Shown here: positions 1,513 to 19,580 of the stretch, piece by piece
How positions within the stretch are numbered: the first letter of the stretch is position 1
Layout: each line of letters opens with the position of its first letter
Source: a virus
Strand: one strand, 5' to 3'
DNA: 64,000 nt
IMG/VR virus record: IMGVR_UViG_3300025508_000006
Span: 52,031-116,030 of that record
The notes under the pieces: model-generated
Told to the model about the DNA's origin: nothing
Database searches by the model: none
The model's input: only the letters and a program-made list of their open reading frames with translations
Position numbers and translations under genes: made by a program

Positions 1513-4500
1513 ATGGCAAATATATTCACATCTAATACGTTATCTGGAAGTTATGCAGACGATTATAACGCTAATGACAACTATCATCAGATATTGTTTA
1601 ACAGCGGTCGCGCACTTCAGTCACGAGAACTTACACAGATGCAGACTCTTATCTATGAAGAGATGGGTCGCATGGGTTCGAACATATTTAAAGACGGTGC
1701 AGTAGTAAATGGTGGTGGTGTTAGCATGAACAATGCTTATCACTTCGTCAAGATTGCATCTACTAATCAGGGTGGCGAGTTCGGTGCTATACCAAACGGC
1801 ACTATCATAAAGAATCCTAACACAAATGTTTCTGCTCAGGTTATTCAAGCGATACCTGCTAACGGTACTCAGTTATTTGATACACTGTTCGTTGAGTACA
1901 TTAATAGTGGTAATGCACTAGCGACAAATTCACCAACTACATTTGGTGATAACGAAACCCTAGTTGAGCAATTTGCTACAAGCAGTGCTTATGAGTTAGT
2001 GACAGAGACTCCTGATGCGACAGGTTACGGTGCTAAGTTTACTGTTGCAGAAGGCGACTTCTTCATTCTAGGTCGTTTTGTTCATACCGAAGAACAGTCG
2101 ATTATTCTTTCATCTTATACTGGTGACAACATTAATGCTGAGGTAGGTTTCAAAGTCATTCAGCAAGTAGTAACTGTTACAGATACCGATTCTCTCTATG
2201 ACAATGCTTCGGGTATTGTTAATACTGCTTCACCTGGTGCTGATCGACTTCGCATCAGATTAGAACTTACTACTAGAGATTTGATTGGAGTAAACGATAC
2301 GTTCGTATTCCTTGCAGAGGTTGAAAACTCAGCAATCAGTGAACAACTACAATCTATTGACGCATATAGTAAAATCGAAGAACTTCTTGCGCTACGTACT
2401 AAGGAAGAGTCTGGTGATTATGTTGTCGAACCTTTCATTGTTAATGTCAGTGAAAACGACAATGGCATAGATGCTAATCTCGAACTTAATGTAAGTGAAG
2501 GTACTGCATATGTAAATGGTTATCGTGCAGAGAATCAATCACCAATTACTTTAAGTCTTCCACGACCAACAGAAACCGAGACAGTAGAGAACGATGTTAT
2601 CGGTGTGAACTACGGCAACTACTTTGTATGTACTGCAAACAGAGGTCTTCCTAATCTTGATCTTGCAAGAGTTGACTTGTGGAGCGCAACAGGTTATGGC
2701 GGTGGTGGTACTGATTACGGTACTTGTCGTATTCGTGCAGTAGAACCTTTCGGAACTAAGTTTAAAGTTTATGTATTTGACATGAGAGTGTTTACTACAG
2801 AAGACCTCGGTAATGTAAAAAGTATTGGTTCCTCAACTACTGATTACTTCGATATCGATTTACAGGGTGGTAAAGCAGTACTACACGAAACTACTAATAA
2901 TAATACAGCATTATTTGCAGCGGCATATCCTCGTATAGAGTCTCTTGCAGATATTGTGTTATCAAAACAAGTACGTCAACAAAAGACTGCATCCACTAAT
3001 GCTGTCACTCTTGATCAGTTACCCGTGGGTTCTTCATATGTAGATTCATCTTTATGGATTGTAAGTTTAAGCAGTGCAGTGATCGAAGCACCTAGCACCT
3101 ACACTGTTGCTATCACTAACGGTGGTAGAGATGCTACTATAACAAGTCTTGCTAGTGCTTCTGGTACGTATGAAATTCTTGCTTATGTTCAGAAGACTGC
3201 AACAGTTCGTCCAAAGACTCTCACAACCGCAACTGCAACTATCAACAGTACTACTGACTCTGCTGGTCGTACATTGTTTGATATTGGTGTTCCTGACATC
3301 TACTCTATTGATTCAGTGCGTCAAAGTAACAGTGTAGGTTTTGATCTCTCGTCCGCAGTAGTACTTGACGATGGACAACGTGACAACTATTATGCTGACG
3401 GTAGTCTTTTACTCAAAGAAGGTCATGCAGATCCTTCTGCGATCTACATTTCATATAAGCACTTTGCACGAGGCAGTGGTGATTTCTACGCTCCTTCTTC
3501 TTACAACGTTCCTTATAAAGATATTCCTTTACATACATCAGTCACTGGTGATACAATTGATCTACGTGATGTTGTTGACTTCAGAGGAGATAGAAATGGT
3601 TTCGAAGGAACTTTCTCTAATGTCAATGCTCTACCTAGAGTAGGTACTAATATTACTGCTGATATCGACTATTATCTACCTCGTGCAGATAAAGTGATTA
3701 TTACACCAGAAGGTGAAGTACAAGTATTAATGGGTCAGCAAGCGCGTGAACCTCAGTTCAAAGAAACGCCTATGCACTCTATGGAACTATACAAGATTAT
3801 TCTCAACGGTAATACTATCAGCGAAAATGATTTGACTGTACTTCCAACAGCACAGCAACGCGGTTACACGATGAAAGATATTGGTGATATTGATCGCAAA
3901 TTAGATGCTCTTGAAGAATCCACATCATTAAGCATTGCAGAACTTGAAGCGAGATTGGACAATGTTCTTGATAGTGCTGGTGTTATTCGTATCATTAGTG
4001 GTATGCAAGTAGACGAGCATGGCGATCAAGGCAATAGTGAAGTCGAATCACCCGATTATAAGGCAGCAATTGATCCTGAGAATCGTTTAGTACGTCCTTC
4101 TTTTGAAGAAGGTAATATGCGTCTAATCTTCGACTCGGCGGCATCTTCGGGTGTTGTTAAGAAAGGTGATAATGTTTATCTTGCTCACACCGAAGCATCT
4201 TGGGTAAACCAAAGTATTGCATCACGGTCAGTTAAGATCAATCCGTTCGGTCTTATTGATAATGTAGGAACGATGAAACTATCACCATCAACTGATGAGT
4301 GGAAAGAATCTATTCAAAATGCCGCCAAGTCTCTTGCGGGTTCGGGTCGTCTATTCGGTAATCAGGCATTCTTATGGAATAACTGGATGTGGAACTGGCA
4401 GGGACGTACTGCGAAAGAGAATGCTGAAATTTCTAAGTTGGCAGGAGTAGTTCGTACTGGTTCTGGCAGAGCGAAAGCATTTGCTTTAAGAACATTACAT

Positions 4501-6892: not shown

Positions 6893-7123
6893 ATGTCGCG
6901 CTACGTTAAAGTAGATGGTGTTCCTGGGTTAGTTCGAGATATGGAGTCTAATGCGTTAATAAACGTAAATTCTCATGAGATCGAACTTGCCCAGAAACAA
7001 AAGAGAATAAGAGAGAAGTCTAAAATAAATCGTCAAAACTTAGAGGATACAGTAGAAGTACTTCAGAAAGATATGTGTGAAATAAAGGAAGCATTAGCAA
7101 TATTGCTTTCCAGAAGCATATAA
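6893..7123 (+). CDS. conserved small hypothetical protein with coiled-coil C-terminus
   Basis: YVKVDG..GLVRD..SNALIN motif, usually found after VrlC-like genes in marine T4-like phages. Confidence 0.65.
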   Translation: MSRYVKVDGVPGLVRDMESNALINVNSHEIELAQKQKRIREKSKINRQNLEDTVEVLQKDMCEIKEALAILLSRSI

Positions 7124-7126
7124 ATA
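7119..7126 (+). promoter_or_regulatory. T4-type late promoter
   Basis: Exact TATAAATA ending 32 nt before the giant ORF. Confidence 0.8.
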
Positions 7127-7158: not shown

Positions 7159-10100
7159 ATGTCCTTACCGCTAAAACATCTCGGCACTGGTGCTCTTCAA
7201 GAACTCGCTACGCTTGATATTGATTATCTTGCGTATCAAGCGGGTATTCATCTTGGTAAAATGAGTAACGAAGATGTCTCTGCTATCTCCACAAATGGTA
7301 GCGGAGCAACAGTTGTCGGATCTTTTACAGATACTCTGTATGAGACAACAGTCGGTTCTACTCCAGGAACAACTTACACCGTAAACTTTACTGTTGAACA
7401 TCGTTCTAATCCTGGAACTGGTACACATACTGCAATATTCACAGCACAGAATGAAATGCCATCTCCTTTATATGTCGGAGATACAGTTTATGTTATCGTG
7501 AACGGTGATGCTATAACTGGATTCGAAGAGATCGGACACGAACTTGCTGTATCTGGTGATGCACTATTTGTTACCGAAGGTGTTAACACAACACCTACAG
7601 CAAATTCAGTTGATGGAACAAGAGTCGAGTGGGAAGACTTTCAGAATGTCGCAGGTCTCTCGGGATCATATCAGTCTGCCTTTGAAATTAAAGTGACTCA
7701 AGTAGGTCTCTTAAACTTTACTTTAACTGCTAACTCTACTGACGTAGATAACACAATCAAACAAACTGCTAATACTAGTATTATATTTCCTACTGTTGAA
7801 GTTGAAGAGACTTTACCACCGGAGTCTATAGGCGTACAGACTGATCTTTATCAAAAGACTACTGCTTCACAACCTATTAATACGACCAGTGCTTTAAAGA
7901 AAAATCCAATATACTGGAACAGAGCATTAACGCCTAATGGTGTTAAGGAGATGAATGACGCAGAACTTGACGCATTTTGCGAAGAGTTAGTCATACGTAT
8001 TATGCGGGACGAGTTGCCTGGTACTTATCGTCTATCCTCTAACAGTCCTGGTGCTAATTGGGTTCAGTTTATTCCTAGCGTATTCGAAGATACTCGTGCT
8101 GACGGAACTACAGTACCGTATTCAATATGGATAAGACAAGCGGGTATTAAACCTACTGTAATCAGACCAGTTTATGTTGCACGTAATGTAGAGAATGGTT
8201 GGGCAGGACTAAAAGAACATACAGATGCCGAAGTAGAATTTACTTTCGGCGAACGCGTAAAGAAAGCAATTGAAACTACAGGAATTGGTAAGTATCAGTT
8301 GCGCTCTTCAACACAAGGTGCACCCACTGATGCAGGTACATGGGTTGCACGTGGTAGTGCAATAGATACAAGACTTGAATACTTCTATGATACTGGTTAT
8401 CAGGCACTAGAAACCTACACGTCACAATATACAGAAGATTATCTTGGTGAGTATGAAGCAACTTATGCGGGTAACTATGAACCCACTTACACAGGCGAGT
8501 TCACAGGCGATTACCTAGGCACTTACGATGGTGACTTCATTGGCAACTACACTCCAACATATGACGGTGATTATCTAGGCGATTACTCGCAGAACTATCT
8601 TGGTGACTACAACACAGAATATACTCAGAACTATCTAGGTGACTATGTAAATCAATACACACCTACATATGATGGTGCCGATTACATTAGTGATTATGAA
8701 AATACATATGATGCTGATGCTGTCATTGAGCAATATGCCAGCGACTACGAATCTGTCGATTACGTTGGCAACTATATTTCTGATTATAACACAGACTATA
8801 TTTCCGATTATACCAATACATATCTTTCAGACTATTCTGGTACAGAGTATGTCGGCAATTATATTTCTGATTATCTAGGTGGATTCCAGACCGATTATCT
8901 CGGAAACTATATTTCAAATTATATTGATGATGTTTATGTAGGCAACTACATCACTGATTACACCAGCGATTATATTAGTAACTATCTTGGATCTTATGAT
9001 GGTGATTATCTAGGTGATTATGGCGCAAGTTATGAAGGTGCTTATGATAACTCATACGAAGGAGACTTCCAAGCAACTTATGCTGGTGACTTCACTGCTG
9101 ATTATCTCGGAACATATCTGACAGATTACGATTCGCAATACGAAGGGCAGTTCTCTGAAAACTACGATGGTGATTACATCAGCGACTATCTCGGAACATA
9201 TTCTAGTGGATATGAGTCTGAATATGAGACAGGTTATATAACCCAATACGAAGGCGCGTATGATGAATCAGAATATGTGGGCAACTTTGTTGCTAGTTAT
9301 GATAACTCATACGAAGGAGACTTCCAAGCAACTTACGCTGGTGATTACATCAGCGACTATCTCGGAACATACCTAAATGATTATGATTCACAATATGAAG
9401 GTCAATTCGCAGATAACTACGCCGGCGATTACATCAGCGACTACCTTGGAACATACGCTAGTGGATATGAGTCTGATTACTCCACTGACTACCTTACACA
9501 ATACGAAGGTGCGTATGATGAATCAGTATATGTGGGCAACTTTGTTGCTAGTTATGATAACTCATACGAGGGTGACTTTCAAGCAACTTATGCTGGTGAC
9601 TTCACTGCTGATTATCTTGGAACATACCTAAATGATTATGATTCACAATATGAGGGTCAGTTCGCAGATAACTACGATGGTGATTACATCAGCGACTATC
9701 TCGGAACGTACACTAGCGGATATGTGTCTGATTACTCTACTGACTATCTTACACAATACGAAGGTGCGTATGATGAAGCGAATTATCTAGGAAACTTTGT
9801 TGCTGATTATGTGTCTGACTTCGAAGGTGCTTACACCAATTTGTATGCTGGTGATTATATCAGCGACTATCTTGGAACATATGCTGGTGAATATGAAAGT
9901 GCTTATGCTACAAACTTCGATGGTATTTACGTTGGTGGATTCGATACAGATTATACAGCAACTTTTGATGGAGAATACGAGAACACCTATATCGGCAACT
10001 ATGTTTCAGACTATCTTAATGAGTTTGAAACCACATACACAGGCGACTATGGTGGTGAATACACCTCTACTTACGCCGGTAATTATAGTGGCAACTATAT

Positions 10101-13100
10101 TTCAGATTATACGAATGAGTTTGAAACCACATACATCGGTGACTATGGCGGTGAATATGTTTCTACTTACGCTGGTAATTATAGTGGCAACTATGTTTCA
10201 GACTATCTTAATGAGTTTGAAACCACATACGCAGGTGATTATGGTGGACAATATACTTCTACTTACGCTGGTAATTATAGTGGCAACTATGTTTCTGACT
10301 ATCTTAATGAGTTTGAAACACCATACGTAGGAAATTATAGCGGTGAATATGTTTCTACTTACGCTGGTAACTACCAAACACAATACGCCAATGACTATAC
10401 TAATGAGTTTGAAACAACTTATACTGGTGATTATCTAGGTAACTATGAAACTGATTATGCAGGCAATTATATTACTCAATACTCTGCCGAATATCAAGTA
10501 CCTTACACTGGTGTTTACACAGGCGATTACATCTCTGACTATATTGGTGATTACATCTCACCTTATGATGGCGCTCTGTACACTTCAGATTATATCTCTA
10601 CTTACGAAAGTGCATATGGTGGTCAATTTGAATCATCATACACTGGAGTATTTGACGGAACAACATACTCAGGAAACTATGCTAGTCAATACGTAGGCAA
10701 CTACATTGGCCTATACAACAAGAACTACGCGACAGCATATGAAGGCACTGATTACATATCCACATACGAAGAAACTTACACTGGAGATTATTCTGGACAA
10801 TATTCTTCTGCTTATGTAAGCGTTTATGATGCTCAAGCATATGCTACAGCATACGAAGAGAATTATATTGGAGATTATTCTGGTACATTCGGTGCTACGT
10901 TCTTAGGAACTTATGATAGTTCAAACTATACTTCAACATACGTAGAGACTTATGTTGGTGATTATCTTGGTAATTATGCTTCTGCTTATGTAAGCGTTTA
11001 TGATGCTCAAGCATATACTGCATCGTTTGACACAACCTATTCTGGTGAGTACTCGGGCGTATTTAACGCATCTTTTGCAGGCGAATATGATAGTACACAA
11101 TATACTTCATCATTTGAAACTACATATGTTGGTGATTATATTGGTCAATTTAGTCAGAACTTTGCTGCCAGTTTCGACGGAATACCTTATGTAGGATCAT
11201 TCGAGACAAACTATGTCGGCAACTATCTCGGACTGTTCACAGGTCAGTTCTCAGCATCATTTGCGGGTTCTGATTACATCTCAATATTTACTGCTCAGTA
11301 TACTTCGCAATATACTGGACAGTTTAGTGCTACTTTCAATGCTTCTTATGATGCTACAACATATGTAGGAGATTATGTATCTGGATACGCAACAGCATAT
11401 AGCGGTGCGTTTGGTGCAACCTTTATTGGCGAATATGATAGACAAGCATATGATACACAGTTTTCAGCAACTTATACCGGAAACTATATTGGTCTATTCT
11501 CTGCTACATTCTTAGGAACGTATGATAGAACAGGTTATGCTTCTAATTTTACTGCTGACTATACAGGTAATTATACTGGTGCCTTCGGTGCTACATTCTT
11601 AGGAACGTATGATCGTCTGCAATACACAAATGAATTTGAAAGTGCATATCTCGGCAACTATATCGGACTGTTCACACAAACGTATATTGGTTCTTATCAA
11701 AGAATCAACTATCTTACACAGTACGAAGGCATATACACAGGTGATTATAGTGGTGCCTTCAGTGCTACATTCTTAGGAACGTATGATCGTGCTGCCTATG
11801 CACGAGAGTATGACAGAGTTTATACAGGTAATTATACTGGCCAGTTCACAGCAAACTATGCCGCGACATATGATCGAATTGACTACACTTCTCAATACAC
11901 GGGCGGTTATACTGGCGGTCCCGCTGAAACTTTCGGTGCTACATTCTTAGGAACGTATGATCGTGCTGGATACGTATCACAGTATACGGGTCAATATGTC
12001 GGTCAAATTAGCGAAGTGTTTGGTGCTGATTACACAGGTAACTATGATAGTAGTAACTACACTTCGTCTTATACTGGACAATATGTAGGACAGATTGCTG
12101 AAAACGAGAATACCACCAATCAAGAATCTTTTGATAGTGGTCAATATGCCGCTCAGTACACAGGACAATATGTAGGACAGGTTGCTAAAAACGAGAATAC
12201 CACTAATGCTGAGTCGTATGATAGTTCAAACTACAACACACAATTTACTGGTAACTATACTGGCGGAGTTACTGAGAATATAACCCAGTCACAGAACGAA
12301 TCGTTCGCAAGAGATTCTTACGTCTCACAATATACTGGTCAGTATACTGGTGTAGTAGCACAAAACACTAACGAAACCTTTACACAAAACTTTAACGAAG
12401 CGGGATCCTATCAGGTTGGTTATGTAGGACAATATATTGGTCAAGTTTCACAGACTCAGCAAACTGGTGAGAGTGAAAACTTCCAAGTAAATTATACTGG
12501 TGATTATACTGGTCAATATATTGGAGTGATTTCACAGACCCAACAGACTGCTACAAATGAAGACTTCAACGTACAATATACTGGTGATTATACTGGTCAA
12601 TATACTGGTGCTGTACAGGAAGCAATATCTTCTACTTACACCGGTGGTTATACTGGTGTTTACAGTGGTAGTTATACTGGTGGTTATACTGGTGGGGTTT
12701 CTCAGACTCAACAGACTGGCATTGCTGAAGCAATAACACAGTCACAGAATCAGTCATTCGCCCGCAATTATGCTGGTAACATCTATGGGACTACTTCTCA
12801 GGTGTCTCTGGGATATACTTCTGACTCATATAATCTGGTGAGTAGTGTAGGTTATAACCCAATCAATCAAGGTGGTGCTTTTTACTCTGCCGGATCGATG
12901 TCTCCTACCTATTGGGGAGGAGGAGTCAATTCGACAGTCACTAAAGTATACAAAAAGAATAACTTTATATACGACGGCACCGGGCAAGATGAGATGCACC
13001 TGTTTTTCGGATCAACCTTCAGTGCATCACAGCAGGGTTCTTTCGGTTCTTTGTTTATATGGTATAGCGGGACTAGTACCACTGCGACTGCGGCAGACAG

Positions 13101-16100
13101 AGCGGGTCATCGATTCTATTCATCACAAGCAACATTGAGTCTCGGCACTAATCAAACGCATTACGCATGGTTACTGGGCAGTGTAGGTACCCAGTACCCT
13201 TTATGGACTTCCAATCTTAATGCTGAGGGTACACCGTGGAATGTTGCTTGGATTCCAAATACAACATCGTCTACTAATTATAATGCCGGTACGTACACAG
13301 GACAATACTCTGGTCAATATGTTGGTGTTTATGTTGGTGGATATACTGGAGTATATACTAGAGTACAACAAACTACTGTAATCGATAATGTCGCAGAAAC
13401 AATTCAACAGTCATACACTGGAACATACACTGGTGGATATGAACGATCACAGAATCAAACTTTCAGTGCGGTCTATGCAGGAACTTATACTGGTCAATAT
13501 ACTGGTGGTTATGTTGGAGCATACGAGAGAGCGCAGAATCAAACTTTCACTGCGGTTTATCAAGGAACTTATACTGGTATTTACACGGGTGGTTATGTTG
13601 GTCTATACGAGAGAGCGCAGAATCAAGAATTTGCTGTTGTATACACCGGTTCATACTTAGGCGACTACACTGGACAATACTCTGGTGGTTATGAACGTGC
13701 GCAGGACGAAACATTCGGTGCAACATATATCGGTGACTATATCGGTCAATACTCTGGACAATACTCTGGTGTATATACACGAGAACAGGCAACAAATTAT
13801 GCCTCTGATTATCTAGGAACATTTGTCGGTAACTATACTGGACAATACCTTGGATTATATGAACGTGCCCAGAATGAATCGTTCACCGTAAACTATCAAG
13901 GAACTTATACTGGTGGTTATACTGGACAATATGCGGGTCTATATGAACGTGCGCAGGACCAAGCATTCGCGGCAAACTATCTCGCAACTTTTGAAGGCGC
14001 ATTCGGAGCGCAGTACACAGGACTATATGAACGTGCGCAGGACCAAACATTTGCTGCCACATACACAGGAACATTTGAAGGTAACTATGTATCACAATAC
14101 ACTGGTTCTTATGAACGAGTGCAGGATCAGCAGTTCTCTGCTAACTATCTAGGAACGTTCAACGCGAGTTATGCTTCTCAGTACGAAGGCGCGTTCGCTT
14201 CCGACTATGCCACACAATATGCTTCACAGTACGTAGGAACATTTGAAGGTGACTATCTATCACAATACACCGGTGGATTCACTCAGAACTTTACAGGTCA
14301 GTTCGGTGTTAACTATGAAGGAACGTTTGACGGTAATTATGCGACACAGTACGAAGGTAATTTCTCACAATCTTTTACTGGTACTTATGCTACACAATAT
14401 ACAGGAACATTTGAAGGTAACTATGTATCAGAATACTCGGGTGCATTTGCCGCTCTTTATACAGGAGACTTTGCTGCCTCGTATCTAGCAACGTTTGATG
14501 GAAATTATGTTAGTCAATATGAAGGTAACTTTGCTGCCAACTTCGGGGCGCAGTTCAGTGAACAATATATTGGAACTTTCTCTGGTGACTATGTGTCAGA
14601 ATATATCGGCGCATTCAATGTTACATATCAAGGCAATTACACTTCTGATTACATTGATACATACACATCCGATTATGTTTCACAGTATGAGTCGCAGTTC
14701 TCCGCTGTATATGCTGGCAACTTCGAAGGTGCATATACAGATGATTATCTTGGCGAGTATGCTAGTCAATACGAAGGCAACTTTAGTGCAACATTCACTG
14801 GAACTTATAACGTAGATTACATCGACACATATACCTCTCAATACCTGTCTACTTACGAAGGTGCTTTTCAAGCACAGTTCATAGGAACATACGACTCACA
14901 GTATCTAGGAACTTTCATCGGTGATTATGGTTCAGCATATGAAAGCAACTTTACTGCTAACTTTGATGGAACATATGATTCAGCATATATCGACACTTAT
15001 GCGGGTGATTATATCTCGGCATACACAGGTGCTTTCCAAGCAAACTTTGAAGGAACCTACGACACACAGTATCTAGGAACATTTGAAGGCAACTATGTGT
15101 CACAGTACACTGGTGACTTTGCCGCAACATTCACTGGAACCTATGACGTTGATTATATTGATACATATGCTGGTGATTATATCTCGGCATACATAGGTAC
15201 TTTCCAAGCAAACTTTGTTGGAACATATGATGGTAACTTCACAGGAACTTATGCTACAGGTTACAACACTGACTATGAAGGAGCGTTCTTAGTTGACTAT
15301 CTTGGTGATTACATATCTGATTATGTTCCTACATATGAAGGTCAATATGCTACTCAATATGAAGGTGATTATGCATCGCAGTACTTAGGTAATTATAACT
15401 CTGCTTACACATCCACTTATGACGGTAACTTCACTCAGACATATGCGGGTAACTTTACTGATGTATATGTTTCTGACACATATATCGGCGATTACATAAA
15501 TCAGTACACGCAAGATTATGTATCTGGATATGCGACACAGTACGAAGGAGCATTCCAACAGAACTATATCGGAACTTATGACACTCAGTACGAATCACAA
15601 TACACTCAAGATTATGTTTCTGACTACGATTCTGGTTATGTCGGTGACGATTTAGAGCAATATGATGGCACTTACGGAACTGCATATGCGGGCGACTTCA
15701 TACAGGACTTTATCACTGACTATGATTCTCAATACGAAGGAGACTTCCAACAGAACTATGTAGGCACTTACGGAACTGCATATTCTGGAGACTTCGTACA
15801 GGATTTTATCACTGACTATGATTCAGGTTACGAAGGAGACTTCCAACAGAACTATGCTGGCACTTACGGAACTGCATATGCGGGTGACTTCATACAGGAC
15901 TTTATCACGGACTACGATTCTAGTTACGAAGGAGATTTCCAACAGAACTATGTAGGCACTTATCAGACTGCCTATGCTGGAGACTTCACTGCGGACTATC
16001 TTACTCAGTACACAGCATCTTACGATGGCACTGTCTATGCTGGAACATACGACTCAAATTATATCAATCAGTATGAGTCAGACTTTACTGAACAATATAC

Positions 16101-17688
16101 TGGTGAGTACGACGACATTGATTATGCAGGTAATTATATCAGTGACTTCGAAACTGATTACACGGGTTTCTATACCTCAGATTACATAGGCGATTATCAG
16201 AGTAATTATCTAGCAACATACGCAGGATTCTACGAGACTGCATTCACTGCAACTTATGCAAGTGAATATACTTCTAACTACGATGATCAAGATTATGCTG
16301 GCAACTATGTTAGTCTTTACACTGGGGATTTCATTGGACAATATACTTCAACTTATGAGACTGCTTATGATGACATCAACTACGTAGGCAACTATATCAG
16401 TGACTATGTTGGTGACTATAGCGGTGATTATGTAACAGATTACGTAGGGGATTATCAGAGTGATTACCTAGCAACATACGCAGGATTCTATGAGACTGGA
16501 TACCTTACAACATATGGAAGTGAATATACTTCTAACTATGACGACATTGATTATGCTGGTAATTATATTAGTCTTTACATTGGCGACTTCATTGGACAAT
16601 ATACTTCAACTTATGAGACTGCTTATGACGACATTGATTATGGTGGTAATTATATTAGTGACTATGTTGGTGACTATAGTGGTGATTATGTAACAGACTA
16701 CATAGGCGATTATGAGAGTAATTATCTAGCAACGTATGCAGGATTCTATGAGACAGAATACCTTACAACATATGCAAGTGAATACACGTCCAACTATGAT
16801 GATCAAGATTATGCTGGCAACTATGTTAGTCTTTACATTGGTGACTTCATTGGACAATATACTTCAACTTATGAAACCGCATATGATGACATCAACTATG
16901 TGGGTAATTATATTAGCGACTATGTTGGTGACTATAGCGGTGATTATGTAACAGATTACACTGGAGTTTACGAAGAGCAGAACTACCTCGGCAATTACGT
17001 ATCAACTTATGATGATATTGAATATGAAGGTAACTATGATTCAATCTACACTACAGATTATCTTGTTGACTTCGAGGGTAATTACTTAGGTGATTACAAC
17101 ACAATCTACGAAGGAACTTATGAGTCTTTATATTCAGGTGACTTCTTACAAGGATTTGATGGAGTCTATGAGGGTGGTTTCGATTCTACTTACGCAGGTG
17201 ATTACGGTACTACTTACGCAGGAGACTATGAGTCAAACTACACACTAACTTATGTTGGTGATTATCTTGGTGACTATACTCCATCGTACTCAACTCTATA
17301 TGCTGGCAACTACACAGGCACTTATGACGCTGATGCAGTAGATGAGTCTTACACTGTTGATTATATCGAACAAACTTATGATACGGACTACACAGTAGAC
17401 TATCAAGAGGATGTCTATCTGGGCAACTATATAGATACATTTGACGGCGCAGATGTTGAAGAGACTTACGTTTCCTCTTATGACGATGTTGATTATTCTA
17501 CTGACTATTCTTCTGACTACGATAATGTCGATGCAATAGAGAACTATCAAGATGCTGATTACACAGGAACATATACTCAAGACTATGCGATAGATTATCA
17601 AACATCTATATTATACGGTGTTGGTGGCAAGTTACTTGCTAATCCAGTACAAATTGAAACATACACATTATATGTAAGGGTAGCATAA
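7159..17688 (+). CDS. giant (3509 aa) Tyr/Asp/Gly/Thr-rich tetrapeptide-repeat protein, putative hairpin fibre
   Basis: Uninterrupted 10.5-kb ORF behind a late promoter in the tail module. [Y/F]xxx periodicity runs over about 2900 aa with a central non-repetitive domain. Confidence 0.8.
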   Translation: MSLPLKHLGTGALQELATLDIDYLAYQAGIHLGKMSNEDVSAISTNGSGATVVGSFTDTLYETTVGSTPGTTYTVNFTVEHRSNPGTGTHTAIFTAQNEMPSPLYVGDTVYVIVNGDAITGFEEIGHELAVSGDALFVTEGVNTTPTANSVDGTRVEWEDFQNVAGLSGSYQSAFEIKVTQVGLLNFTLTANSTDVDNTIKQTANTSIIFPTVEVEETLPPESIGVQTDLYQKTTASQPINTTSALKKNPIYWNRALTPNGVKEMNDAELDAFCEELVIRIMRDELPGTYRLSSNSPGANWVQFIPSVFEDTRADGTTVPYSIWIRQAGIKPTVIRPVYVARNVENGWAGLKEHTDAEVEFTFGERVKKAIETTGIGKYQLRSSTQGAPTDAGTWVARGSAIDTRLEYFYDTGYQALETYTSQYTEDYLGEYEATYAGNYEPTYTGEFTGDYLGTYDGDFIGNYTPTYDGDYLGDYSQNYLGDYNTEYTQNYLGDYVNQYTPTYDGADYISDYENTYDADAVIEQYASDYESVDYVGNYISDYNTDYISDYTNTYLSDYSGTEYVGNYISDYLGGFQTDYLGNYISNYIDDVYVGNYITDYTSDYISNYLGSYDGDYLGDYGASYEGAYDNSYEGDFQATYAGDFTADYLGTYLTDYDSQYEGQFSENYDGDYISDYLGTYSSGYESEYETGYITQYEGAYDESEYVGNFVASYDNSYEGDFQATYAGDYISDYLGTYLNDYDSQYEGQFADNYAGDYISDYLGTYASGYESDYSTDYLTQYEGAYDESVYVGNFVASYDNSYEGDFQATYAGDFTADYLGTYLNDYDSQYEGQFADNYDGDYISDYLGTYTSGYVSDYSTDYLTQYEGAYDEANYLGNFVADYVSDFEGAYTNLYAGDYISDYLGTYAGEYESAYATNFDGIYVGGFDTDYTATFDGEYENTYIGNYVSDYLNEFETTYTGDYGGEYTSTYAGNYSGNYISDYTNEFETTYIGDYGGEYVSTYAGNYSGNYVSDYLNEFETTYAGDYGGQYTSTYAGNYSGNYVSDYLNEFETPYVGNYSGEYVSTYAGNYQTQYANDYTNEFETTYTGDYLGNYETDYAGNYITQYSAEYQVPYTGVYTGDYISDYIGDYISPYDGALYTSDYISTYESAYGGQFESSYTGVFDGTTYSGNYASQYVGNYIGLYNKNYATAYEGTDYISTYEETYTGDYSGQYSSAYVSVYDAQAYATAYEENYIGDYSGTFGATFLGTYDSSNYTSTYVETYVGDYLGNYASAYVSVYDAQAYTASFDTTYSGEYSGVFNASFAGEYDSTQYTSSFETTYVGDYIGQFSQNFAASFDGIPYVGSFETNYVGNYLGLFTGQFSASFAGSDYISIFTAQYTSQYTGQFSATFNASYDATTYVGDYVSGYATAYSGAFGATFIGEYDRQAYDTQFSATYTGNYIGLFSATFLGTYDRTGYASNFTADYTGNYTGAFGATFLGTYDRLQYTNEFESAYLGNYIGLFTQTYIGSYQRINYLTQYEGIYTGDYSGAFSATFLGTYDRAAYAREYDRVYTGNYTGQFTANYAATYDRIDYTSQYTGGYTGGPAETFGATFLGTYDRAGYVSQYTGQYVGQISEVFGADYTGNYDSSNYTSSYTGQYVGQIAENENTTNQESFDSGQYAAQYTGQYVGQVAKNENTTNAESYDSSNYNTQFTGNYTGGVTENITQSQNESFARDSYVSQYTGQYTGVVAQNTNETFTQNFNEAGSYQVGYVGQYIGQVSQTQQTGESENFQVNYTGDYTGQYIGVISQTQQTATNEDFNVQYTGDYTGQYTGAVQEAISSTYTGGYTGVYSGSYTGGYTGGVSQTQQTGIAEAITQSQNQSFARNYAGNIYGTTSQVSLGYTSDSYNLVSSVGYNPINQGGAFYSAGSMSPTYWGGGVNSTVTKVYKKNNFIYDGTGQDEMHLFFGSTFSASQQGSFGSLFIWYSGTSTTATAADRAGHRFYSSQATLSLGTNQTHYAWLLGSVGTQYPLWTSNLNAEGTPWNVAWIPNTTSSTNYNAGTYTGQYSGQYVGVYVGGYTGVYTRVQQTTVIDNVAETIQQSYTGTYTGGYERSQNQTFSAVYAGTYTGQYTGGYVGAYERAQNQTFTAVYQGTYTGIYTGGYVGLYERAQNQEFAVVYTGSYLGDYTGQYSGGYERAQDETFGATYIGDYIGQYSGQYSGVYTREQATNYASDYLGTFVGNYTGQYLGLYERAQNESFTVNYQGTYTGGYTGQYAGLYERAQDQAFAANYLATFEGAFGAQYTGLYERAQDQTFAATYTGTFEGNYVSQYTGSYERVQDQQFSANYLGTFNASYASQYEGAFASDYATQYASQYVGTFEGDYLSQYTGGFTQNFTGQFGVNYEGTFDGNYATQYEGNFSQSFTGTYATQYTGTFEGNYVSEYSGAFAALYTGDFAASYLATFDGNYVSQYEGNFAANFGAQFSEQYIGTFSGDYVSEYIGAFNVTYQGNYTSDYIDTYTSDYVSQYESQFSAVYAGNFEGAYTDDYLGEYASQYEGNFSATFTGTYNVDYIDTYTSQYLSTYEGAFQAQFIGTYDSQYLGTFIGDYGSAYESNFTANFDGTYDSAYIDTYAGDYISAYTGAFQANFEGTYDTQYLGTFEGNYVSQYTGDFAATFTGTYDVDYIDTYAGDYISAYIGTFQANFVGTYDGNFTGTYATGYNTDYEGAFLVDYLGDYISDYVPTYEGQYATQYEGDYASQYLGNYNSAYTSTYDGNFTQTYAGNFTDVYVSDTYIGDYINQYTQDYVSGYATQYEGAFQQNYIGTYDTQYESQYTQDYVSDYDSGYVGDDLEQYDGTYGTAYAGDFIQDFITDYDSQYEGDFQQNYVGTYGTAYSGDFVQDFITDYDSGYEGDFQQNYAGTYGTAYAGDFIQDFITDYDSSYEGDFQQNYVGTYQTAYAGDFTADYLTQYTASYDGTVYAGTYDSNYINQYESDFTEQYTGEYDDIDYAGNYISDFETDYTGFYTSDYIGDYQSNYLATYAGFYETAFTATYASEYTSNYDDQDYAGNYVSLYTGDFIGQYTSTYETAYDDINYVGNYISDYVGDYSGDYVTDYVGDYQSDYLATYAGFYETGYLTTYGSEYTSNYDDIDYAGNYISLYIGDFIGQYTSTYETAYDDIDYGGNYISDYVGDYSGDYVTDYIGDYESNYLATYAGFYETEYLTTYASEYTSNYDDQDYAGNYVSLYIGDFIGQYTSTYETAYDDINYVGNYISDYVGDYSGDYVTDYTGVYEEQNYLGNYVSTYDDIEYEGNYDSIYTTDYLVDFEGNYLGDYNTIYEGTYESLYSGDFLQGFDGVYEGGFDSTYAGDYGTTYAGDYESNYTLTYVGDYLGDYTPSYSTLYAGNYTGTYDADAVDESYTVDYIEQTYDTDYTVDYQEDVYLGNYIDTFDGADVEETYVSSYDDVDYSTDYSSDYDNVDAIENYQDADYTGTYTQDYAIDYQTSILYGVGGKLLANPVQIETYTLYVRVA
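9046..9800 (+). repeat. 3 x 255-nt (85-aa) coding tandem repeat, N-arm
   Basis: GATAACTCATACGA recurs at 9046, 9301 and 9556. Confidence 0.9.
9990..10440 (+). repeat. about 4.5-5 x 96-nt (32-aa) coding tandem repeat, N-arm
   Basis: NEFET motif every 32 aa; GAGTTTGAAA at 10021, 10117 and onward. Confidence 0.85.
15500..15990 (+). repeat. about 5 x 96-nt (32-aa) coding tandem repeat, C-arm
   Basis: GTYGTAYAGDFIQDFITDY/EGDFQQNY units; CTTACGGAACTGCA at 15671, 15767 and onward. Confidence 0.85.
16110..16960 (+). repeat. 3 x 258-nt (86-aa) coding tandem repeat, C-arm
   Basis: TAGCAAC (YLATYAGFYET) recurs at 16211, 16469 and 16727. Confidence 0.9.
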
Positions 17689-18161
17689 TGACAGTGGAAT
17701 TTTTAGACAATGGATTTTGGGAAAACGAAGAAAAGACAATACTTAAATGTATTCGCTTAACTCCTATACCAGAAGGAGGTAGAAAGAAAGACGTTCTTGA
17801 ACTACGTAAGATATTGCCGGACGGTTCAGAATGTCCTCAGTTCAAGCAGTGTATCGCACAGCATGGTATAGCAAAGATTGATGCTAATACGCAAGTTCGA
17901 AAGGATACTAAAGAGAAAGAAGATCGAGAGAAACGTGCTATACACGAGCAACGTAAAAAATCTCACGAACTTGAACAACTCTTTAATGCCAAACTACAAG
18001 CATTCGAAATTGATGAGATCAAGAACTCAACAAATCGCGAGTTGCGTTCTAAACTACGTAGGGCGAAGAATGTTATTGAAATGAATGCATTGGCAGCATT
18101 AGTGATTGGAAGTGAACTTGGTTATTTTAAAAAGGTAGATGAAGATGAGCGAACCGACTAA
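17688..18161 (+). CDS. hypothetical Lys/Arg/Glu-rich helical protein, possible fibre chaperone
   Basis: TAATG stop/start overlap with the giant ORF; charged helical composition. Function is inferred only. Confidence 0.6.
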   Translation: MTVEFLDNGFWENEEKTILKCIRLTPIPEGGRKKDVLELRKILPDGSECPQFKQCIAQHGIAKIDANTQVRKDTKEKEDREKRAIHEQRKKSHELEQLFNAKLQAFEIDEIKNSTNRELRSKLRRAKNVIEMNALAALVIGSELGYFKKVDEDERTD

Positions 18162-18903
18162 AGGTTATGTTATTGTAGCATCACGAAAGAAGTTTTTTTA
18201 TGTCTCTGCCATTAATTTGATGGAGTCAATCAAAGATTATTATCCTGAAGCACAGATTACATTTGTAGTAGAAGAAAAGTTTCTTGACGGACAAGAAAGA
18301 ATTGCAGACAATGTTATATTCTGCGACGATCATGCTAGAGCAAAACTGATTGGTATGGCAAAGTCTCCGTATGATATAACGTTTTATGTCGATGCTGATA
18401 TAGAATGTGAACATGAAGACATTGCAACTATCTTTGATAAACTTGATGGACACGATTTGATGTTTACTGGTTTACCTGCTGATAGGCATTATTGCTATGC
18501 CGAGGTGTTCTTCGAGGGTGCAAGAAAACCAGACGGCACTAAAGCAGGATTTGAATTGTGTGGTGGTGTTTGTCTATATGATATGCGTAAACCCTTAGTT
18601 CGTTCATTCATGCAAGATTGGTATGACTTGACTGTTGCTCAGTACGGTAAAGTTTGGTGGCCAACATTAGAAGATGGAGTGACCGAAGATTTAGAAAATT
18701 ATCCTGCAACTCTGAAGAGATGGGATCAATTCTCACTGTGGTGGTTAGTCAATAAAGAACCTAAGTACAAAGATTTGAAAGTCGGTATACTAGAAGACGA
18801 TGCTCGGTGGAACTTTTATTCCAAATATAAATATGATCACAACAAGGATCCTGTCGTATTGAGACACTATTCTTCTTCTGGAGCAAAGCAACTGGATTTT
18901 TAA
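18139..18903 (+). CDS. GT-A fold glycosyltransferase-like protein
   Basis: KGYVIVAS N-terminal strand, SPYDITFYVDAD (DxD motif), GGVCLY, WDQFSLW, WNF and a C-terminal His. This layout is typical of GT8-like nucleotide-diphospho-sugar transferases. Confidence 0.7.
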   Translation: MKMSEPTKGYVIVASRKKFFYVSAINLMESIKDYYPEAQITFVVEEKFLDGQERIADNVIFCDDHARAKLIGMAKSPYDITFYVDADIECEHEDIATIFDKLDGHDLMFTGLPADRHYCYAEVFFEGARKPDGTKAGFELCGGVCLYDMRKPLVRSFMQDWYDLTVAQYGKVWWPTLEDGVTEDLENYPATLKRWDQFSLWWLVNKEPKYKDLKVGILEDDARWNFYSKYKYDHNKDPVVLRHYSSSGAKQLDF

Positions 18904-18905
18904 AT

Positions 18906-19580
18906 ATGATGAAAAATATACCACTGAATGATTATGCAATTAATCTTCTGAACGAAGCACTTTGGTTTACTAAGGAAGAGAACTACAGTGCTGTTATTCC
19001 TTCTAAGATAAATGATTTAGATAAAGCAGATTGGTACACTGGTCAAGAATATTTCGAGCAGATTAAGGGCGAGGGCAGACAACATGATGGGTTCCCCGCT
19101 TTCGTTACTAGTTATTCATTCAATCAAGATTATAGGTTTGATCCTCGTAATCCACATATTGATCGAAAGATAGCAGAAGTTGCAGATCATCATGGCAAGT
19201 TGATGACTAATATACAGACCGCTTTCAATCTTAAAAAGAATGCTCTGTTCTCTGTATATCCGCCCGGTGGTTATATCTCATGGCACAACAATGCGAATGC
19301 TTCGGCATATAACTTTATATTCACTTACAGTGAAACTGGTGATGGTTGGTGGAAGCATTGGGATCCAGTCAATCAGAAAATGATTCACATTCCTGATGTT
19401 AAAGGTTGGCAATGTAAAGCAGGACACTTCGGTGCATATGAAGATGGACCCGAATCCCTAGTATATCACACTGCACGTAATGGTGAAAGCGGAATACGTA
19501 TGACAATTGCCTTTGTATTAGATCGATCAGAGATGTCTTTAGGTATACAAGATTGGGTAATTGAAGATATACACGTCTAA
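18906..19580 (+). CDS. 2OG-Fe(II) oxygenase-like (double-stranded beta-helix) protein
   Basis: YPPGGYISWHNN, distal YHTA and RMTIAF resemble the HxD...H...R facial triad and 2OG site, but with HxN in place of HxD. Confidence 0.55.
   Translation: MMKNIPLNDYAINLLNEALWFTKEENYSAVIPSKINDLDKADWYTGQEYFEQIKGEGRQHDGFPAFVTSYSFNQDYRFDPRNPHIDRKIAEVADHHGKLMTNIQTAFNLKKNALFSVYPPGGYISWHNNANASAYNFIFTYSETGDGWWKHWDPVNQKMIHIPDVKGWQCKAGHFGAYEDGPESLVYHTARNGESGIRMTIAFVLDRSEMSLGIQDWVIEDIHV

What the first reader, a model, noticed from the sequence alone, without database searches (positions are those of the whole stretch)
7159..17688. Mirror-symmetric 3509-aa protein: a candidate giant antiparallel hairpin 'needle' fibre
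Seen in the sequence: the region 8377-17655 splits into an N-arm (8377-12780, 1468 aa), a non-repetitive 166-aa domain (12781-13278) and a C-arm (13279-17655, 1459 aa). Both arms are [Y/F]xxx tetrapeptides with occasional 5-residue units, and their tandem blocks mirror each other about the centre in copy number and in number of aromatic units. (1) 3 x 85 aa (21 units; 9046-9800) matches 3 x 86 aa (21 units; 16110-16960). (2) About 5 x 32 aa (8 units; 9990-10440) matches about 5 x 32 aa (15500-15990). (3) 29/28-aa 7-unit repeats occur on both inner arms. The matched blocks differ in sequence, so this is not a simple inverted duplication. Established: the T4 gp37 tip is a trimer of long antiparallel hairpins with the head domain at the turn. 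Inference: the chain runs out and back with the arms paired in register and aromatics stacked in the core. If fully extended (about 0.33 nm per residue) this would be a filament up to about 0.5 um long with a receptor-binding tip. I know of no described fibre with this architecture at this scale.
Basis: partly seen in the sequence, partly recalled or inferred. Interest (0 to 1): 0.95.

Follow-up and report, generated by a model that had tools for sequence, protein, structure and literature searches.

The report
Giant out-and-back tyrosine-ladder phage fibre
A T4-like phage from aquatic metagenomes encodes a 3,509-residue fibre protein whose chain most likely runs out to a fast-evolving tip domain and back along itself, because related phages lengthen or shorten both halves by matching pieces at mirror-image places; no described fibre family is built this way at this scale.

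Summary
ORF 7159-17688 encodes 3,509 aa: a base domain, two arms of about 1,460 aa with Tyr/Phe at every fourth residue, a 166-aa central domain and a conserved C-terminal strand. The repeat blocks lie in mirror order.

The hairpin reading is strongly supported.
- In relatives from other contigs every arm indel is matched at the mirror site: N-arm 170/64/58 against C-arm 172/64/56 in one relative, and 170/128/58 against 172/128/56 in another. The N-minus-C length difference stays at 8-9 aa.
- The matched blocks are unrelated in sequence.
- The central domain is hypervariable (35-58% identity), while the arms are 75-91% identical and the last 29 aa are identical.
- The base domain consists of three homologous modules. 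The C-terminal YTLYVR strand aligns with the return strand of the module-2 hairpin, so arms plus tip sit inside a hairpin turn.
- AlphaFold2 on a 540-aa family member gives two long strands, at the start of one arm and the end of the other, which probably pair at the base.

Outside this subfamily compensation is only partial.

The oligomeric state and the real length (up to about 0.5 um if extended) remain unknown. No Pfam, PHROG or PDB relative was found. The scan found homologues of this protein before on other DNA, with the same conclusion.

The parts
7119..7126 (+). T4-type late promoter motif TATAAATA, 33 nt upstream of the start codon
   Evidence: 13 matches in the window, all on the + strand, against 5.8 expected. 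Sequence context.
7159..17688 (+). The giant fibre gene, 3,509 codons plus stop
   Evidence: No Pfam or PHROG family.
7159..8376 (+). Base (anchor) domain, aa 1-406. It consists of three tandem homologous modules of about 90 aa. Module 1 (FTDTLY aa 56-61 ... TDLYQK aa 228-233) carries an insert of about 165 aa in its hairpin. Module 2 is intact (FEDTR aa 309-313, 7-residue turn, YSIWIRQ aa 321-327). Module 3 supplies only the helix and the outgoing strand (AIDTRL aa 401-406).
   Evidence: Motif positions. Three repeated beta-beta-alpha-hairpin units in the AF2 secondary structure of P0088 at pLDDT above 90. hhalign gives module 1 vs 2 at 81% and module 2 vs 3 at 94-95%. The domain has 298 cluster representatives in 1.8 billion proteins.
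8377..12780 (+). N-arm (outgoing), aa 407-1874, [Y/F]xxx tetrapeptide units, net charge about -190
9040..9804 (+). N-arm 3 x 85-aa block (21 aromatic units per copy). Copies are 83-87% identical at DNA level. Relatives L009, L010 and L003 have one copy.
9994..10473 (+). N-arm 5 x 32-aa block (8 units per copy). There are 3 copies in L009 and L003, and 1 in L010.
10456..12138 (+). N-arm 29/58-aa repeats (7 units per 29-mer, one of them a 5-residue unit). Relatives lack two 29-mers here.
12781..13278 (+). Central non-repetitive domain, aa 1875-2040. It is beta-rich and hypervariable, and is the proposed distal receptor-binding tip at the hairpin turn.
   Evidence: Identity to relatives is 35-58%, against 75-91% in the arms. 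AF2 predicts strands at pLDDT 50-78. No Pfam, PDB or ESM Atlas relative.
13279..17598 (+). C-arm (returning), aa 2041-3480, same tetrapeptide make-up as the N-arm, net charge about -207
13279..15138 (+). C-arm 28/56-aa repeats (7 units per 28-mer). Relatives lack two 28-mers here, opposite the missing 29-mers of the N-arm.
15499..15978 (+). C-arm 5 x 32-aa block. There are 3 copies in L009 and 1 in L010, matching the N-arm in every genome.
16180..16953 (+). C-arm 3 x 86-aa block (21 units per copy). Copies are 86-89% identical at DNA level. L009 and L010 have one copy.
17599..17685 (+). C-terminal 29 aa, identical in all close relatives. It ends in the family-wide return strand ETYTLYVRVA (aa 3500-3509, nt 17656-17685).
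   Evidence: 100% identity. The motif ends essentially all full-length family members (about 106 of the first 150 hits). It aligns with the return strand of the module-2 hairpin. pLDDT is 90-98 in the P0088 model.
17688..19580 (+). Three tightly packed downstream genes (157, 254 and 224 aa), conserved in the same order behind the homologous giant gene of Phage C48C1. They are candidate assembly or modification factors; their function is not established.
   Evidence: BLASTP gives 37%, 55% and 40% identity to the C48C1 neighbours. No significant Pfam or PHROG hit; only a weak GT2 hint at E 0.11.

Best explanation
The gene encodes a virion fibre of a T4-like phage, built as one very long intramolecular hairpin.

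Proposed arrangement:
- A three-module base domain anchors the fibre to the particle.
- The third module is split. Its outgoing beta-strand (AIDTR, aa 401-406) continues into the N-arm.
- The chain reaches a small variable domain at the far end, the presumed receptor binder.
- It returns as the C-arm and ends in the strand YTLYVR, which completes the base module.

Both arms are amphipathic beta-strand material. Tyr/Phe alternate with Gly/Ser on one face, and polar, mostly acidic residues lie on the other. The arms lie antiparallel, aromatic unit against aromatic unit.

Fibre length is tuned by tandem duplication or loss of repeat blocks. A change in one arm has to be matched in the other, so the C-terminal strand still reaches the base.

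What is shown: the mirror architecture, the matched indels, the variable centre, the conserved ends and the module homology. What is inferred: physical pairing of the arms, the distal position and receptor role of the central domain, attachment at the baseplate, extended beta conformation over the whole length, and any oligomeric state.
For: 1. Compensating indels. Against the window protein, L009 (2,926 aa) lacks 170 + 64 + 58 aa in the N-arm and 56 + 64 + 172 aa in the C-arm. L010 (2,814 aa) lacks 170 + 128 + 58 and 56 + 128 + 172.
   - The orders are mirrored and the numbers of aromatic units are about equal (42/16/14 against 44/16/14).
   - The totals are identical: 292 = 292 and 356 = 356.
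   - N-arm minus C-arm stays at 9, 9, 9 and 8 aa in four genomes.
   - 32-mer copy numbers (N, C) are (5,5), (3,3) and (1,1).
2. The paired blocks are unrelated in sequence, so each arm changed by its own events.
3. The states recur in diverged strains. L003 and L009 are 87% identical and share one N-arm state. The window and L008 are 86% identical and share the long state. No 55-mer is repeated within the gene.
4. Other subfamilies show the same pattern.
   - P0023, P0181 and P0182 against P0183 and P0184: +36 aa at 91 aa from the base domain and +38 aa at 108 aa from the C-end.
   - P0223 against P0225: 16 aa at 122 and 16 aa at 143.
   - P0113 against P0261: 29 aa at 121 and 27 aa at about 150.
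5. Across 78 complete representatives from 50%-identity clusters, outer-arm lengths correlate: Spearman 0.66, with 0 of 5,000 permutations reaching the observed closeness.
6. The minimal member P0088 (540 aa) is literally tetrapeptides, then octapeptides, a turn of about 20 aa, octapeptides, then tetrapeptides.
7. AF2 of P0088 with 75 sequences gives a base domain at pLDDT above 90. It also gives two strands of 32-34 residues, 255-286 and 505-538; the C-end has pLDDT 90-98. Each can only pair with the other.
8. hhalign of module 2 against module 3 plus the C-terminal 17 aa gives 94-95% probability over 86-88 columns, with DTR aligned on DTR and YNIYxR on YTLYVR. The score is 45.7 with the true C-end, 36.2 without it, 33.3 with an arm piece and 31-38.5 with shuffled columns.
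9. The central domain is 35-58% identical among relatives, while the arms are 75-91%, the base 85-92% and the last 29 aa 100% identical.
10. Context.
   - A late promoter lies upstream.
   - The gene lies between a baseplate wedge gene plus a 1,792-aa DUF4815 protein and the neck genes.
   - That interval appears to correspond to the host-recognition cluster, between the VrlC gene and gp14, described for pelagi- and cyanomyophages (PMC7029224). Equating the DUF4815 protein with VrlC is my inference.
Against: - There is no structure. AF2 on the window's own tip with flanking arms failed (mean pLDDT 35), and in P0088 the middle of the arms has pLDDT 30-40. I could not inspect model coordinates, so the pairing of the two long strands is deduced from the DSSP output.
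- Compensation is not universal. P0054 against P0201 has an unmatched 12 aa, and P0059 against P0173 an unmatched 16 aa. P0152 against P0008 has an unmatched 114 aa at the edge of an irregular middle region, and variants in the P0066 cluster are also unmatched.
- Over 23 close pairs outside the window's subfamily, the crude outer-arm changes correlate only weakly: Spearman 0.47 (p 0.02), Pearson 0.23 (not significant).
- The C48C1 homologue has six globular inserts and no evident mirror order of repeat types.
- The relative aromatic phase of the two arms is not constant, which argues against a rigid residue-by-residue zipper.
- The arms carry about -400 net charge per chain. That needs counter-ions or partners to pack.
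- Presence of the protein in virions has not been shown.
Confidence: 0.8

Rival explanations
1. This is the same out-and-back topology, but compact. Each arm folds into a beta-solenoid or stacked-hairpin rod with rungs of about 28-32 aa. The two rods lie side by side antiparallel, giving a fibre of tens of nanometres rather than half a micrometre.
For: Strong super-periods of 28, 29 and 32 aa, with 85/86 equal to three of these. All observed indels are whole super-repeats. The aromatic phase drift between 29-mers and 28-mers is easier to tolerate rung against rung than residue against residue.
Against: AF2 models the start of the arms in P0088 as continuous strands of 32-34 residues, not as coils. 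Whole-repeat indels are also what tandem-repeat mutation produces in any case. In another subfamily the matched indel is only 16 aa, or 4 units.
Confidence: 0.15
2. Pairing is between chains. The N-arm of one chain lies against the C-arm of another in an antiparallel oligomer, giving a bipolar rod with base domains at both ends and the variable domains in the middle.
For: This would also produce mirrored, length-matched arms and co-evolution between the base domain and the C-terminal strand. None of my tests separates intra-chain from inter-chain contacts.
Against: P0088 joins its arms by a turn of only about 20 aa with no domain. In module 2 the homologous hairpin is closed within the chain by a 7-residue turn. 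A hypervariable domain makes sense at a free tip. A rod with two attachment ends has no obvious place on a baseplate.
Confidence: 0.04
3. The arms do not pair at all. Each folds alone in a conventional parallel homotrimeric shaft, and the symmetry and matched indels come from assembly collapse of repeats or from chance.
For: Metagenome assemblers can shorten tandem arrays. Logan contigs break inside the arrays, so copy number is not directly confirmed by them. Several family pairs show unmatched changes.
Against: - Repeat copies differ by 11-17% at DNA level (83-89% identity) and share no 55-mer.
- Three graded states, (5,5), (3,3) and (1,1), are always equal in both arms.
- The same states occur in strains only 86-87% identical from different samples.
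- Totals are identical to the residue.
- Independent matched indels occur in three other subfamilies.
- The C-terminal strand is homologous to a hairpin return strand.
Confidence: 0.02

Closest known systems
Needle-and-head tip of the T4 long tail fibre protein gp37 (Bartual et al. 2010, as described in PMC9659904)
   Same: The chain goes out to a distal receptor-binding head and comes back. The shaft is therefore made of antiparallel strands, and the variable binding domain sits at the turn.
   Different: - In gp37 only the last 215 or so residues form the tip. Here the whole fibre beyond the base, 2 x about 1,460 aa, would be the hairpin.
- gp37's needle, as I recall it, is held by iron bound to His-x-His motifs. 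These arms have no histidine at all and instead carry Tyr/Phe every fourth residue.
- There is no detectable sequence or profile relationship.
- The trimeric, six-stranded state of gp37 is not established here.
Uncharacterised marine phage protein family, whose only member in a named phage genome record is the 3,347-aa hypothetical protein WJE88074.1 of Phage C48C1 (OQ984149, Kyanoviridae)
   Same: - Homologous base domain (38.6% identity over aa 239-405, E 9e-25).
- [Y/F]xxx repeat arms and an identical C-terminal ETYTLYVRVA.
- The same three downstream genes.
- The window protein is a member of this family.
   Different: C48C1's arms are arginine-rich rather than acidic. They are interrupted by six globular domains and show no obvious mirror order. 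The family has no name, no Pfam or PHROG model and no literature that I could find.
Other repeat-built phage fibre shafts, such as the triple beta-helix of T4 gp5/gp12 and the adenovirus/reovirus triple beta-spiral (recalled from my own knowledge)
   Same: They are long, thin, repeat-built beta shafts that carry a distal binding domain. Repeat number sets their length.
   Different: Those shafts are parallel homotrimers with N-terminus and C-terminus at opposite ends. Their repeats are 8-15 residues or more, and copy number can change at one site without a partner change. No Pfam or PHROG hit to any of them.

Membership tests
Unnamed marine phage hairpin-fibre family (C48C1 WJE88074.1-like) | Homologous N-terminal base domain | tested here: met
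   phmmer with aa 1-406 finds 298 representatives at E <= 0.001 and 82 at E <= 1e-30. tblastn to C48C1 gives E 9e-25.
Unnamed marine phage hairpin-fibre family (C48C1 WJE88074.1-like) | C-terminal strand motif [Y/F]-T-[L/M]-[Y/F]-x-[R/K]-x-x at the very end | tested here: met
   The window protein ends in ETYTLYVRVA. The motif ends about 106 of the first 150 hits, the rest being mostly truncated fragments.
Unnamed marine phage hairpin-fibre family (C48C1 WJE88074.1-like) | Aromatic-periodic repeat arms on both sides of a non-repetitive middle | tested here: met
T4 gp37 tip (needle and head) | Sequence or profile homology to the gp37 C-terminal region | tested here: not met
   No Pfam or PHROG family for the whole protein. 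No PDB sequence hit for the base or central domain.
T4 gp37 tip (needle and head) | His-x-His metal-binding motifs lining the needle core | tested here: not met
   There are 0 histidines in either arm.
T4 gp37 tip (needle and head) | Out-and-back chain with length-matched antiparallel arms and the head at the turn | tested here: met
   Met by indirect evidence only: matched mirrored indels, the AF2 strands at the base of both arms in P0088 and the hairpin-strand homology of the C-end. There is no experimental structure.
T4 gp37 tip (needle and head) | Homotrimer forming a six-stranded needle | not testable with these tools
Annotated phage tail fibre families (PHROGs) | Significant match to any PHROG tail fibre profile | tested here: not met
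   0 families at E <= 0.001 for P0001, while the neighbouring 775-aa ORF hits eight PHROG families, five of them annotated tail fibre.
Known folds for the base domain | Structural match of the AF2 base-domain model to a solved or predicted viral structure | tested here: inconclusive
   Foldseek against PDB and BFVD gives nothing at E <= 0.001. VIA-align wide gives a best Z of 5.9 (MACPF/MABP-type beta modules), below the level that means anything.

The most novel reading that the evidence does not exclude
The arms are a fully extended, in-register aromatic/glycine zipper. The fibre would then be a beta-needle 0.4-0.5 um long, grown out of a single beta-hairpin of a pseudo-threefold, three-module base. 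That would be a new protein fibre fold and the longest single-protein phage fibre known. Its length would evolve by compensating repeat expansions in the two strands, a protein analogue of compensatory base-pair change in RNA helices.
Probability: 0.35. Interest if true: 0.95.

Novelty: new variant of a known kind. Interest (0 to 1): 0.82.

Why it matters
- Fibre design. It would extend the out-and-back design, so far known from the short tip of T4 gp37, to a whole fibre of thousands of residues, in an abundant and entirely unannotated family of aquatic phage proteins.
- Topology without a structure. The matched indels give a rare sequence-only read-out of protein topology, and a clear case of compensatory length evolution within one polypeptide.
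- Host-range prediction. The work marks the 166-aa central domain, not the C-terminus, as the place to look for host specificity in these phages. That changes how receptor-binding proteins should be sought in marine T4-like genomes.
- Materials. The tetrapeptide Tyr/Gly ladder may be a new self-assembling beta material whose length can be set by repeat number.

Tried and rejected
- AF2 of the window's own tip with about 135 aa of each arm (aa 1741-2180, 4-sequence alignment) gave mean pLDDT 35. Only the central domain was partly structured, so it gave no information on the arms.
No verdict exists.
- Foldseek against PDB and BFVD and VIA-align wide on the P0088 model gave no meaningful fold match. 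The ESM Atlas gave no usable hit for the central domain.
- Pfam gave nothing on eight other family members, including C48C1 and P0153.
- The phage DNA search with megablast found nothing. tblastn with the central domain found nothing.
- A composition-based test of mirror against direct order over 97 family members favoured mirror order (69 of 97). I reject it as evidence, because any repeat-domain-repeat layout gives that result.
- I looked for residue-level register.
  - Rare irregular units do lie at similar distances from the two ends. YDADAV sits at 111 aa from the base-domain end and 112 aa from the C-end, and 5-residue YD(E/D)xx units sit at 295/380/465 against 292/378/464.
  - The true offset at the base is unknown and the aromatic phase drifts, so I treat this as anecdotal.
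- An all-against-all BLASTP of the family timed out and was replaced by a 6-mer screen.
- Laid contigs show no joint that skips exactly two 85-mers or two 86-mers in four runs. That is no evidence about the absence of short alleles.
- Six literature searches found no description of this family.
Full report
**What is there**

The window is part of a 116-kb IMG/VR virus record, estimated 67% complete. Its genes are those of a T4-like myovirus: baseplate wedge, sheath, neck proteins, portal, major head protein and terminase. The major head protein is closest to Phage C48C1 (69.5% identity). Next come Methylophilales phage Melnitz, Pelagibacter phage HTVC008M and cyanomyoviruses, all at about 60%.

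ORF 7159-17688 (+) is open for 3,509 codons. A T4-type late promoter motif, TATAAATA, lies at 7119-7126. All 13 copies of this motif in the window are on the + strand, against 5.8 expected.

The gene follows a baseplate wedge gene and a 1,792-aa DUF4815 protein, and it precedes the neck genes. That interval appears to correspond to the one called the host-recognition cluster in pelagi- and cyanomyophages, between the VrlC gene and gp14, where the tail fibre genes lie (PMC7029224). Equating the DUF4815 protein with VrlC is my inference. Neither Pfam nor PHROGs recognises any part of the protein.

- Tyr/Phe recur at a spacing of exactly four residues 289 times in aa 407-1874 and 304 times in aa 2041-3499.
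- Both arms have the same tetrapeptide grammar. Position 1 is Y/F. Position 2 is mixed and rich in beta-branched or hydrophobic residues. Position 3 is small (G 45%, S 20%, T/A). Position 4 is D/T/N/Q.
- The arms hold 206 and 218 acidic residues against 13 and 11 basic ones. They contain no His, Cys or Trp.
- Tandem blocks lie in mirror order about the 166-aa central domain. From the base inward the N-arm has 3 x 85 aa, 5 x 32 aa, 29/58-aa repeats and 28-aa repeats. From the centre outward the C-arm has 28/56-aa repeats, 5 x 32 aa and 3 x 86 aa.
- The paired blocks share nothing but the aromatic period.

**The decisive test: relatives**

Scans of viral and metagenome contigs gave three further complete homologues with 75-91% identical arms, and one N-terminal part. 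They are L008 (3,508 aa), L009 (2,926 aa), L010 (2,814 aa, identical to L005) and L003 (N-terminal part only). Global alignments show that every arm indel has a partner at the mirror site.

| Relative | Missing in N-arm (aa) | Missing in C-arm (aa) | Total each arm |
|---|---|---|---|
| L009 | 170, 64, 58 | 56, 64, 172 | 292 = 292 |
| L010 | 170, 128, 58 | 56, 128, 172 | 356 = 356 |

- In aromatic units the L009 losses are 42/16/14 against 14/16/44.
- The difference N-arm minus C-arm is 9, 9, 9 and 8 aa in the four genomes.
- 32-mer copy numbers (N, C) are (5,5), (3,3) and (1,1).
- At least four separate events in each arm are therefore matched.

Assembly collapse is an unlikely cause.
- Repeat copies are only 83-89% identical at DNA level.
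- No 55-mer recurs within the gene.
- The intermediate N-arm state occurs in two strains that are 87% identical (L003 and L009). The long state occurs in two strains that are 86% identical (the window and L008).
- Contigs of four runs from four studies cover all parts of the gene. In three of the runs the listed pieces carry 0-2 differences each; the fourth run is more diverged.

**Family**

The base domain defines a large unannotated family, with 298 representatives of 50%-identity clusters and lengths from about 400 to 4,046 aa. Essentially all full-length members end in the motif [Y/F]-T-[L/M]-[Y/F]-x-[R/K]-x-x. Almost all come from aquatic metagenomes and are labelled hypothetical. The only hit in the 50,697-record phage collection is Phage C48C1.

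The smallest clear member, P0088 (540 aa), consists of the base domain, tetrapeptide repeats, YVGNPxIN-type octapeptides, a turn of about 20 residues, octapeptides, tetrapeptides and the end motif. It is a bare hairpin without a tip domain.

Outer-arm lengths correlate over 78 complete representatives: Spearman 0.66, with no permutation of 5,000 as close.

Independent matched indels occur in three other subfamilies.
- 36 aa against 38 aa, at 91 and 108 aa from the two ends, in five 90%-identity clusters.
- 16 aa against 16 aa, at 122 and 143.
- 29 aa against 27 aa, at 121 and about 150.

The rule is not absolute.
- Unmatched indels of 12 aa and 16 aa exist. So does an unmatched 114-aa piece at the edge of an irregular middle region, as do variants in the P0066 cluster.
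- Over 23 close pairs outside the window's subfamily, the crude outer-arm changes correlate only weakly: Spearman 0.47, Pearson 0.23.
- Many of those unmatched changes lie in poorly repetitive sequence next to the middle domains, where a hairpin imposes no constraint.
- C48C1's protein has six globular inserts and no evident mirror order.

**Closure at the base**

AlphaFold2 on P0088 with a 75-sequence alignment gives a confident base domain (pLDDT above 90). That domain is made of three similar beta-beta-alpha-hairpin units. The model also has two continuous strands, 255-286 and 505-538, and the C-end has pLDDT 90-98. Strands of that length can only be partnered by each other. I could not inspect coordinates, so this is a deduction from the DSSP output.

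Profile-profile alignment supports the same picture.
- Module 2 aligns with module 3 plus the C-terminal 17 residues at 94-95% probability over 86-88 columns.
- FTDTR aligns on A(T/I)DTR, and the return strand YNIYxR aligns on YTLYVR.
- The global score is 45.7 with the true C-end. It is 36.2 without it, 33.3 with an arm piece in its place, and 31-38.5 with the C-terminal columns shuffled.

In the window protein the three modules read as follows.
- Module 1: FTDTLY, then an insert of about 165 aa, then TDLYQK.
- Module 2: FEDTR, then ADGTTVP, then YSIWIRQ.
- Module 3: AIDTRL, then 3,093 aa, then ETYTLYVRVA.

The arms and tip are therefore best read as a giant insertion into the turn of a small beta-hairpin. 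That fixes the topology as out and back.

**Tip**

Among close relatives the central domain is 35-58% identical. The arms are 75-91% identical, the base 85-92%, and the last 29 residues 100%. This is the pattern expected of a receptor-binding tip under diversifying selection, with both chain ends held at a conserved attachment site. The domain has no recognisable relatives.

**Mechanism proposed**

The fibre is anchored by the three-module base, and both chain ends lie there. The two arms run antiparallel, aromatic unit against aromatic unit. The Tyr/Phe-Gly/Ser face would be buried and the acidic face exposed.

The register is per unit rather than per residue. 29-mers (seven units, one of them five residues long) face 28-mers (seven units), and 85-mers face 86-mers. 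The relative aromatic phase drifts accordingly.

Length changes arise by tandem duplication or deletion in one arm and are fixed together with a matching change in the other. If fully extended, 1,460 residue pairs would span up to about 0.5 um. A compact form, with rungs of about 28-32 aa, is not excluded.

The oligomeric state is unknown. Because the base has three internal modules, even a single-chain fibre on a pseudo-threefold base is conceivable, but that is speculation.

**Comparison with the known**

The closest precedent is the gp37 tip of T4. It is a six-stranded antiparallel needle formed by three chains, with a head domain that holds the receptor-binding site (PMC9659904). The topology is the same. 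The scale, the chemistry (no histidines) and the sequence are different, so this protein is not a member of that family. Parallel trimeric shafts, such as the triple beta-helix and triple beta-spiral, differ in having their two chain ends at opposite poles.

**Earlier notes of this scan**

The scan had already flagged homologues on other DNA, of 3,508 aa and 2,814 aa, and follow-up agents reached the same reading. I re-derived the matched indels here independently.
- matched indels in other subfamilies, together with their exceptions;
- the minimal 540-aa hairpin member;
- the AF2 strands at the base of both arms;
- the homology of the C-terminal strand to a hairpin return strand, which follows a lead in a first-reader note on the base modules.

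**Not done**

Noticed in passing
window 17688-19580: Three tightly packed genes (157, 254 and 224 aa) directly follow the giant gene. They are conserved in the same order behind the homologous gene of Phage C48C1 (37%, 55% and 40% identity). The first is a K/R/E-rich helical protein. The second has a DADIE motif and a weak GT2 hint (E 0.11). The third has no family. They may be fibre assembly or modification factors.
   Followed up: partly
window 1513-6891: A 1,792-aa protein with DUF4815 and PHROG 358 (E 7e-291) lies just upstream. It is probably the VrlC-like baseplate protein that marks the start of the host-recognition cluster in pelagi- and cyanomyophages (PMC7029224).
   Followed up: partly
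window 6893-7120: A small ORF of about 76 aa lies between the DUF4815 gene and the late promoter of the giant gene. C48C1 has a 76-aa 'virion structural protein' directly after its DUF4815-type gene, although four more genes separate that ORF from its giant gene.
   Followed up: no
window 21141-23468: A 775-aa ORF hits eight PHROG families, five of them annotated tail fibre (best E 3.7e-81), and weakly hits a pectate-lyase-like fold. The phage therefore carries at least one conventional fibre or spike besides the hairpin fibre.
   Followed up: no
window, whole: All 13 copies of the T4 late-promoter motif TATAAATA are on the + strand (5.8 expected). Several are paired a few bases apart, for example 19586/19598 and 41708/41724.
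   Followed up: no
window 8900-10500 (public runs): Twenty runs from 13 studies hold half or more of the sampled words of this stretch. They are mostly labelled freshwater or aquatic metagenome (2017-2018), with some from 2025. The phage population seems widespread, and the habitat may not be strictly marine.
   Followed up: partly
L002 11734-21777 (Phage C48C1 OQ984149): The C48C1 homologue (3,347 aa) has arginine-rich rather than acidic arms and six globular inserts. It also has an exact duplication of about 75 aa (around aa 2009-2085 repeated at 2084-2160). If the first insert is taken as the tip, repeat residues before it (about 1,020) and after it (about 1,035, not counting inserts) are nearly equal. 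This is a post-hoc count with fuzzy boundaries.
   Followed up: partly
P0088 (540 aa, metagenome protein): The inner half of each arm of this minimal member is made of YVGNPxIN-type octapeptide repeats (about seven per arm) instead of tetrapeptides. So the family uses more than one repeat grammar for paired arms.
   Followed up: no
window 7342-7839 (aa 62-227): The hairpin of the first base module carries an insert of about 165 aa rich in beta-strand sequence. Only the window's close subfamily has this insert; most family members have about 20 aa there. The same hairpin-insertion trick therefore seems to be used twice in one protein.
   Followed up: partly
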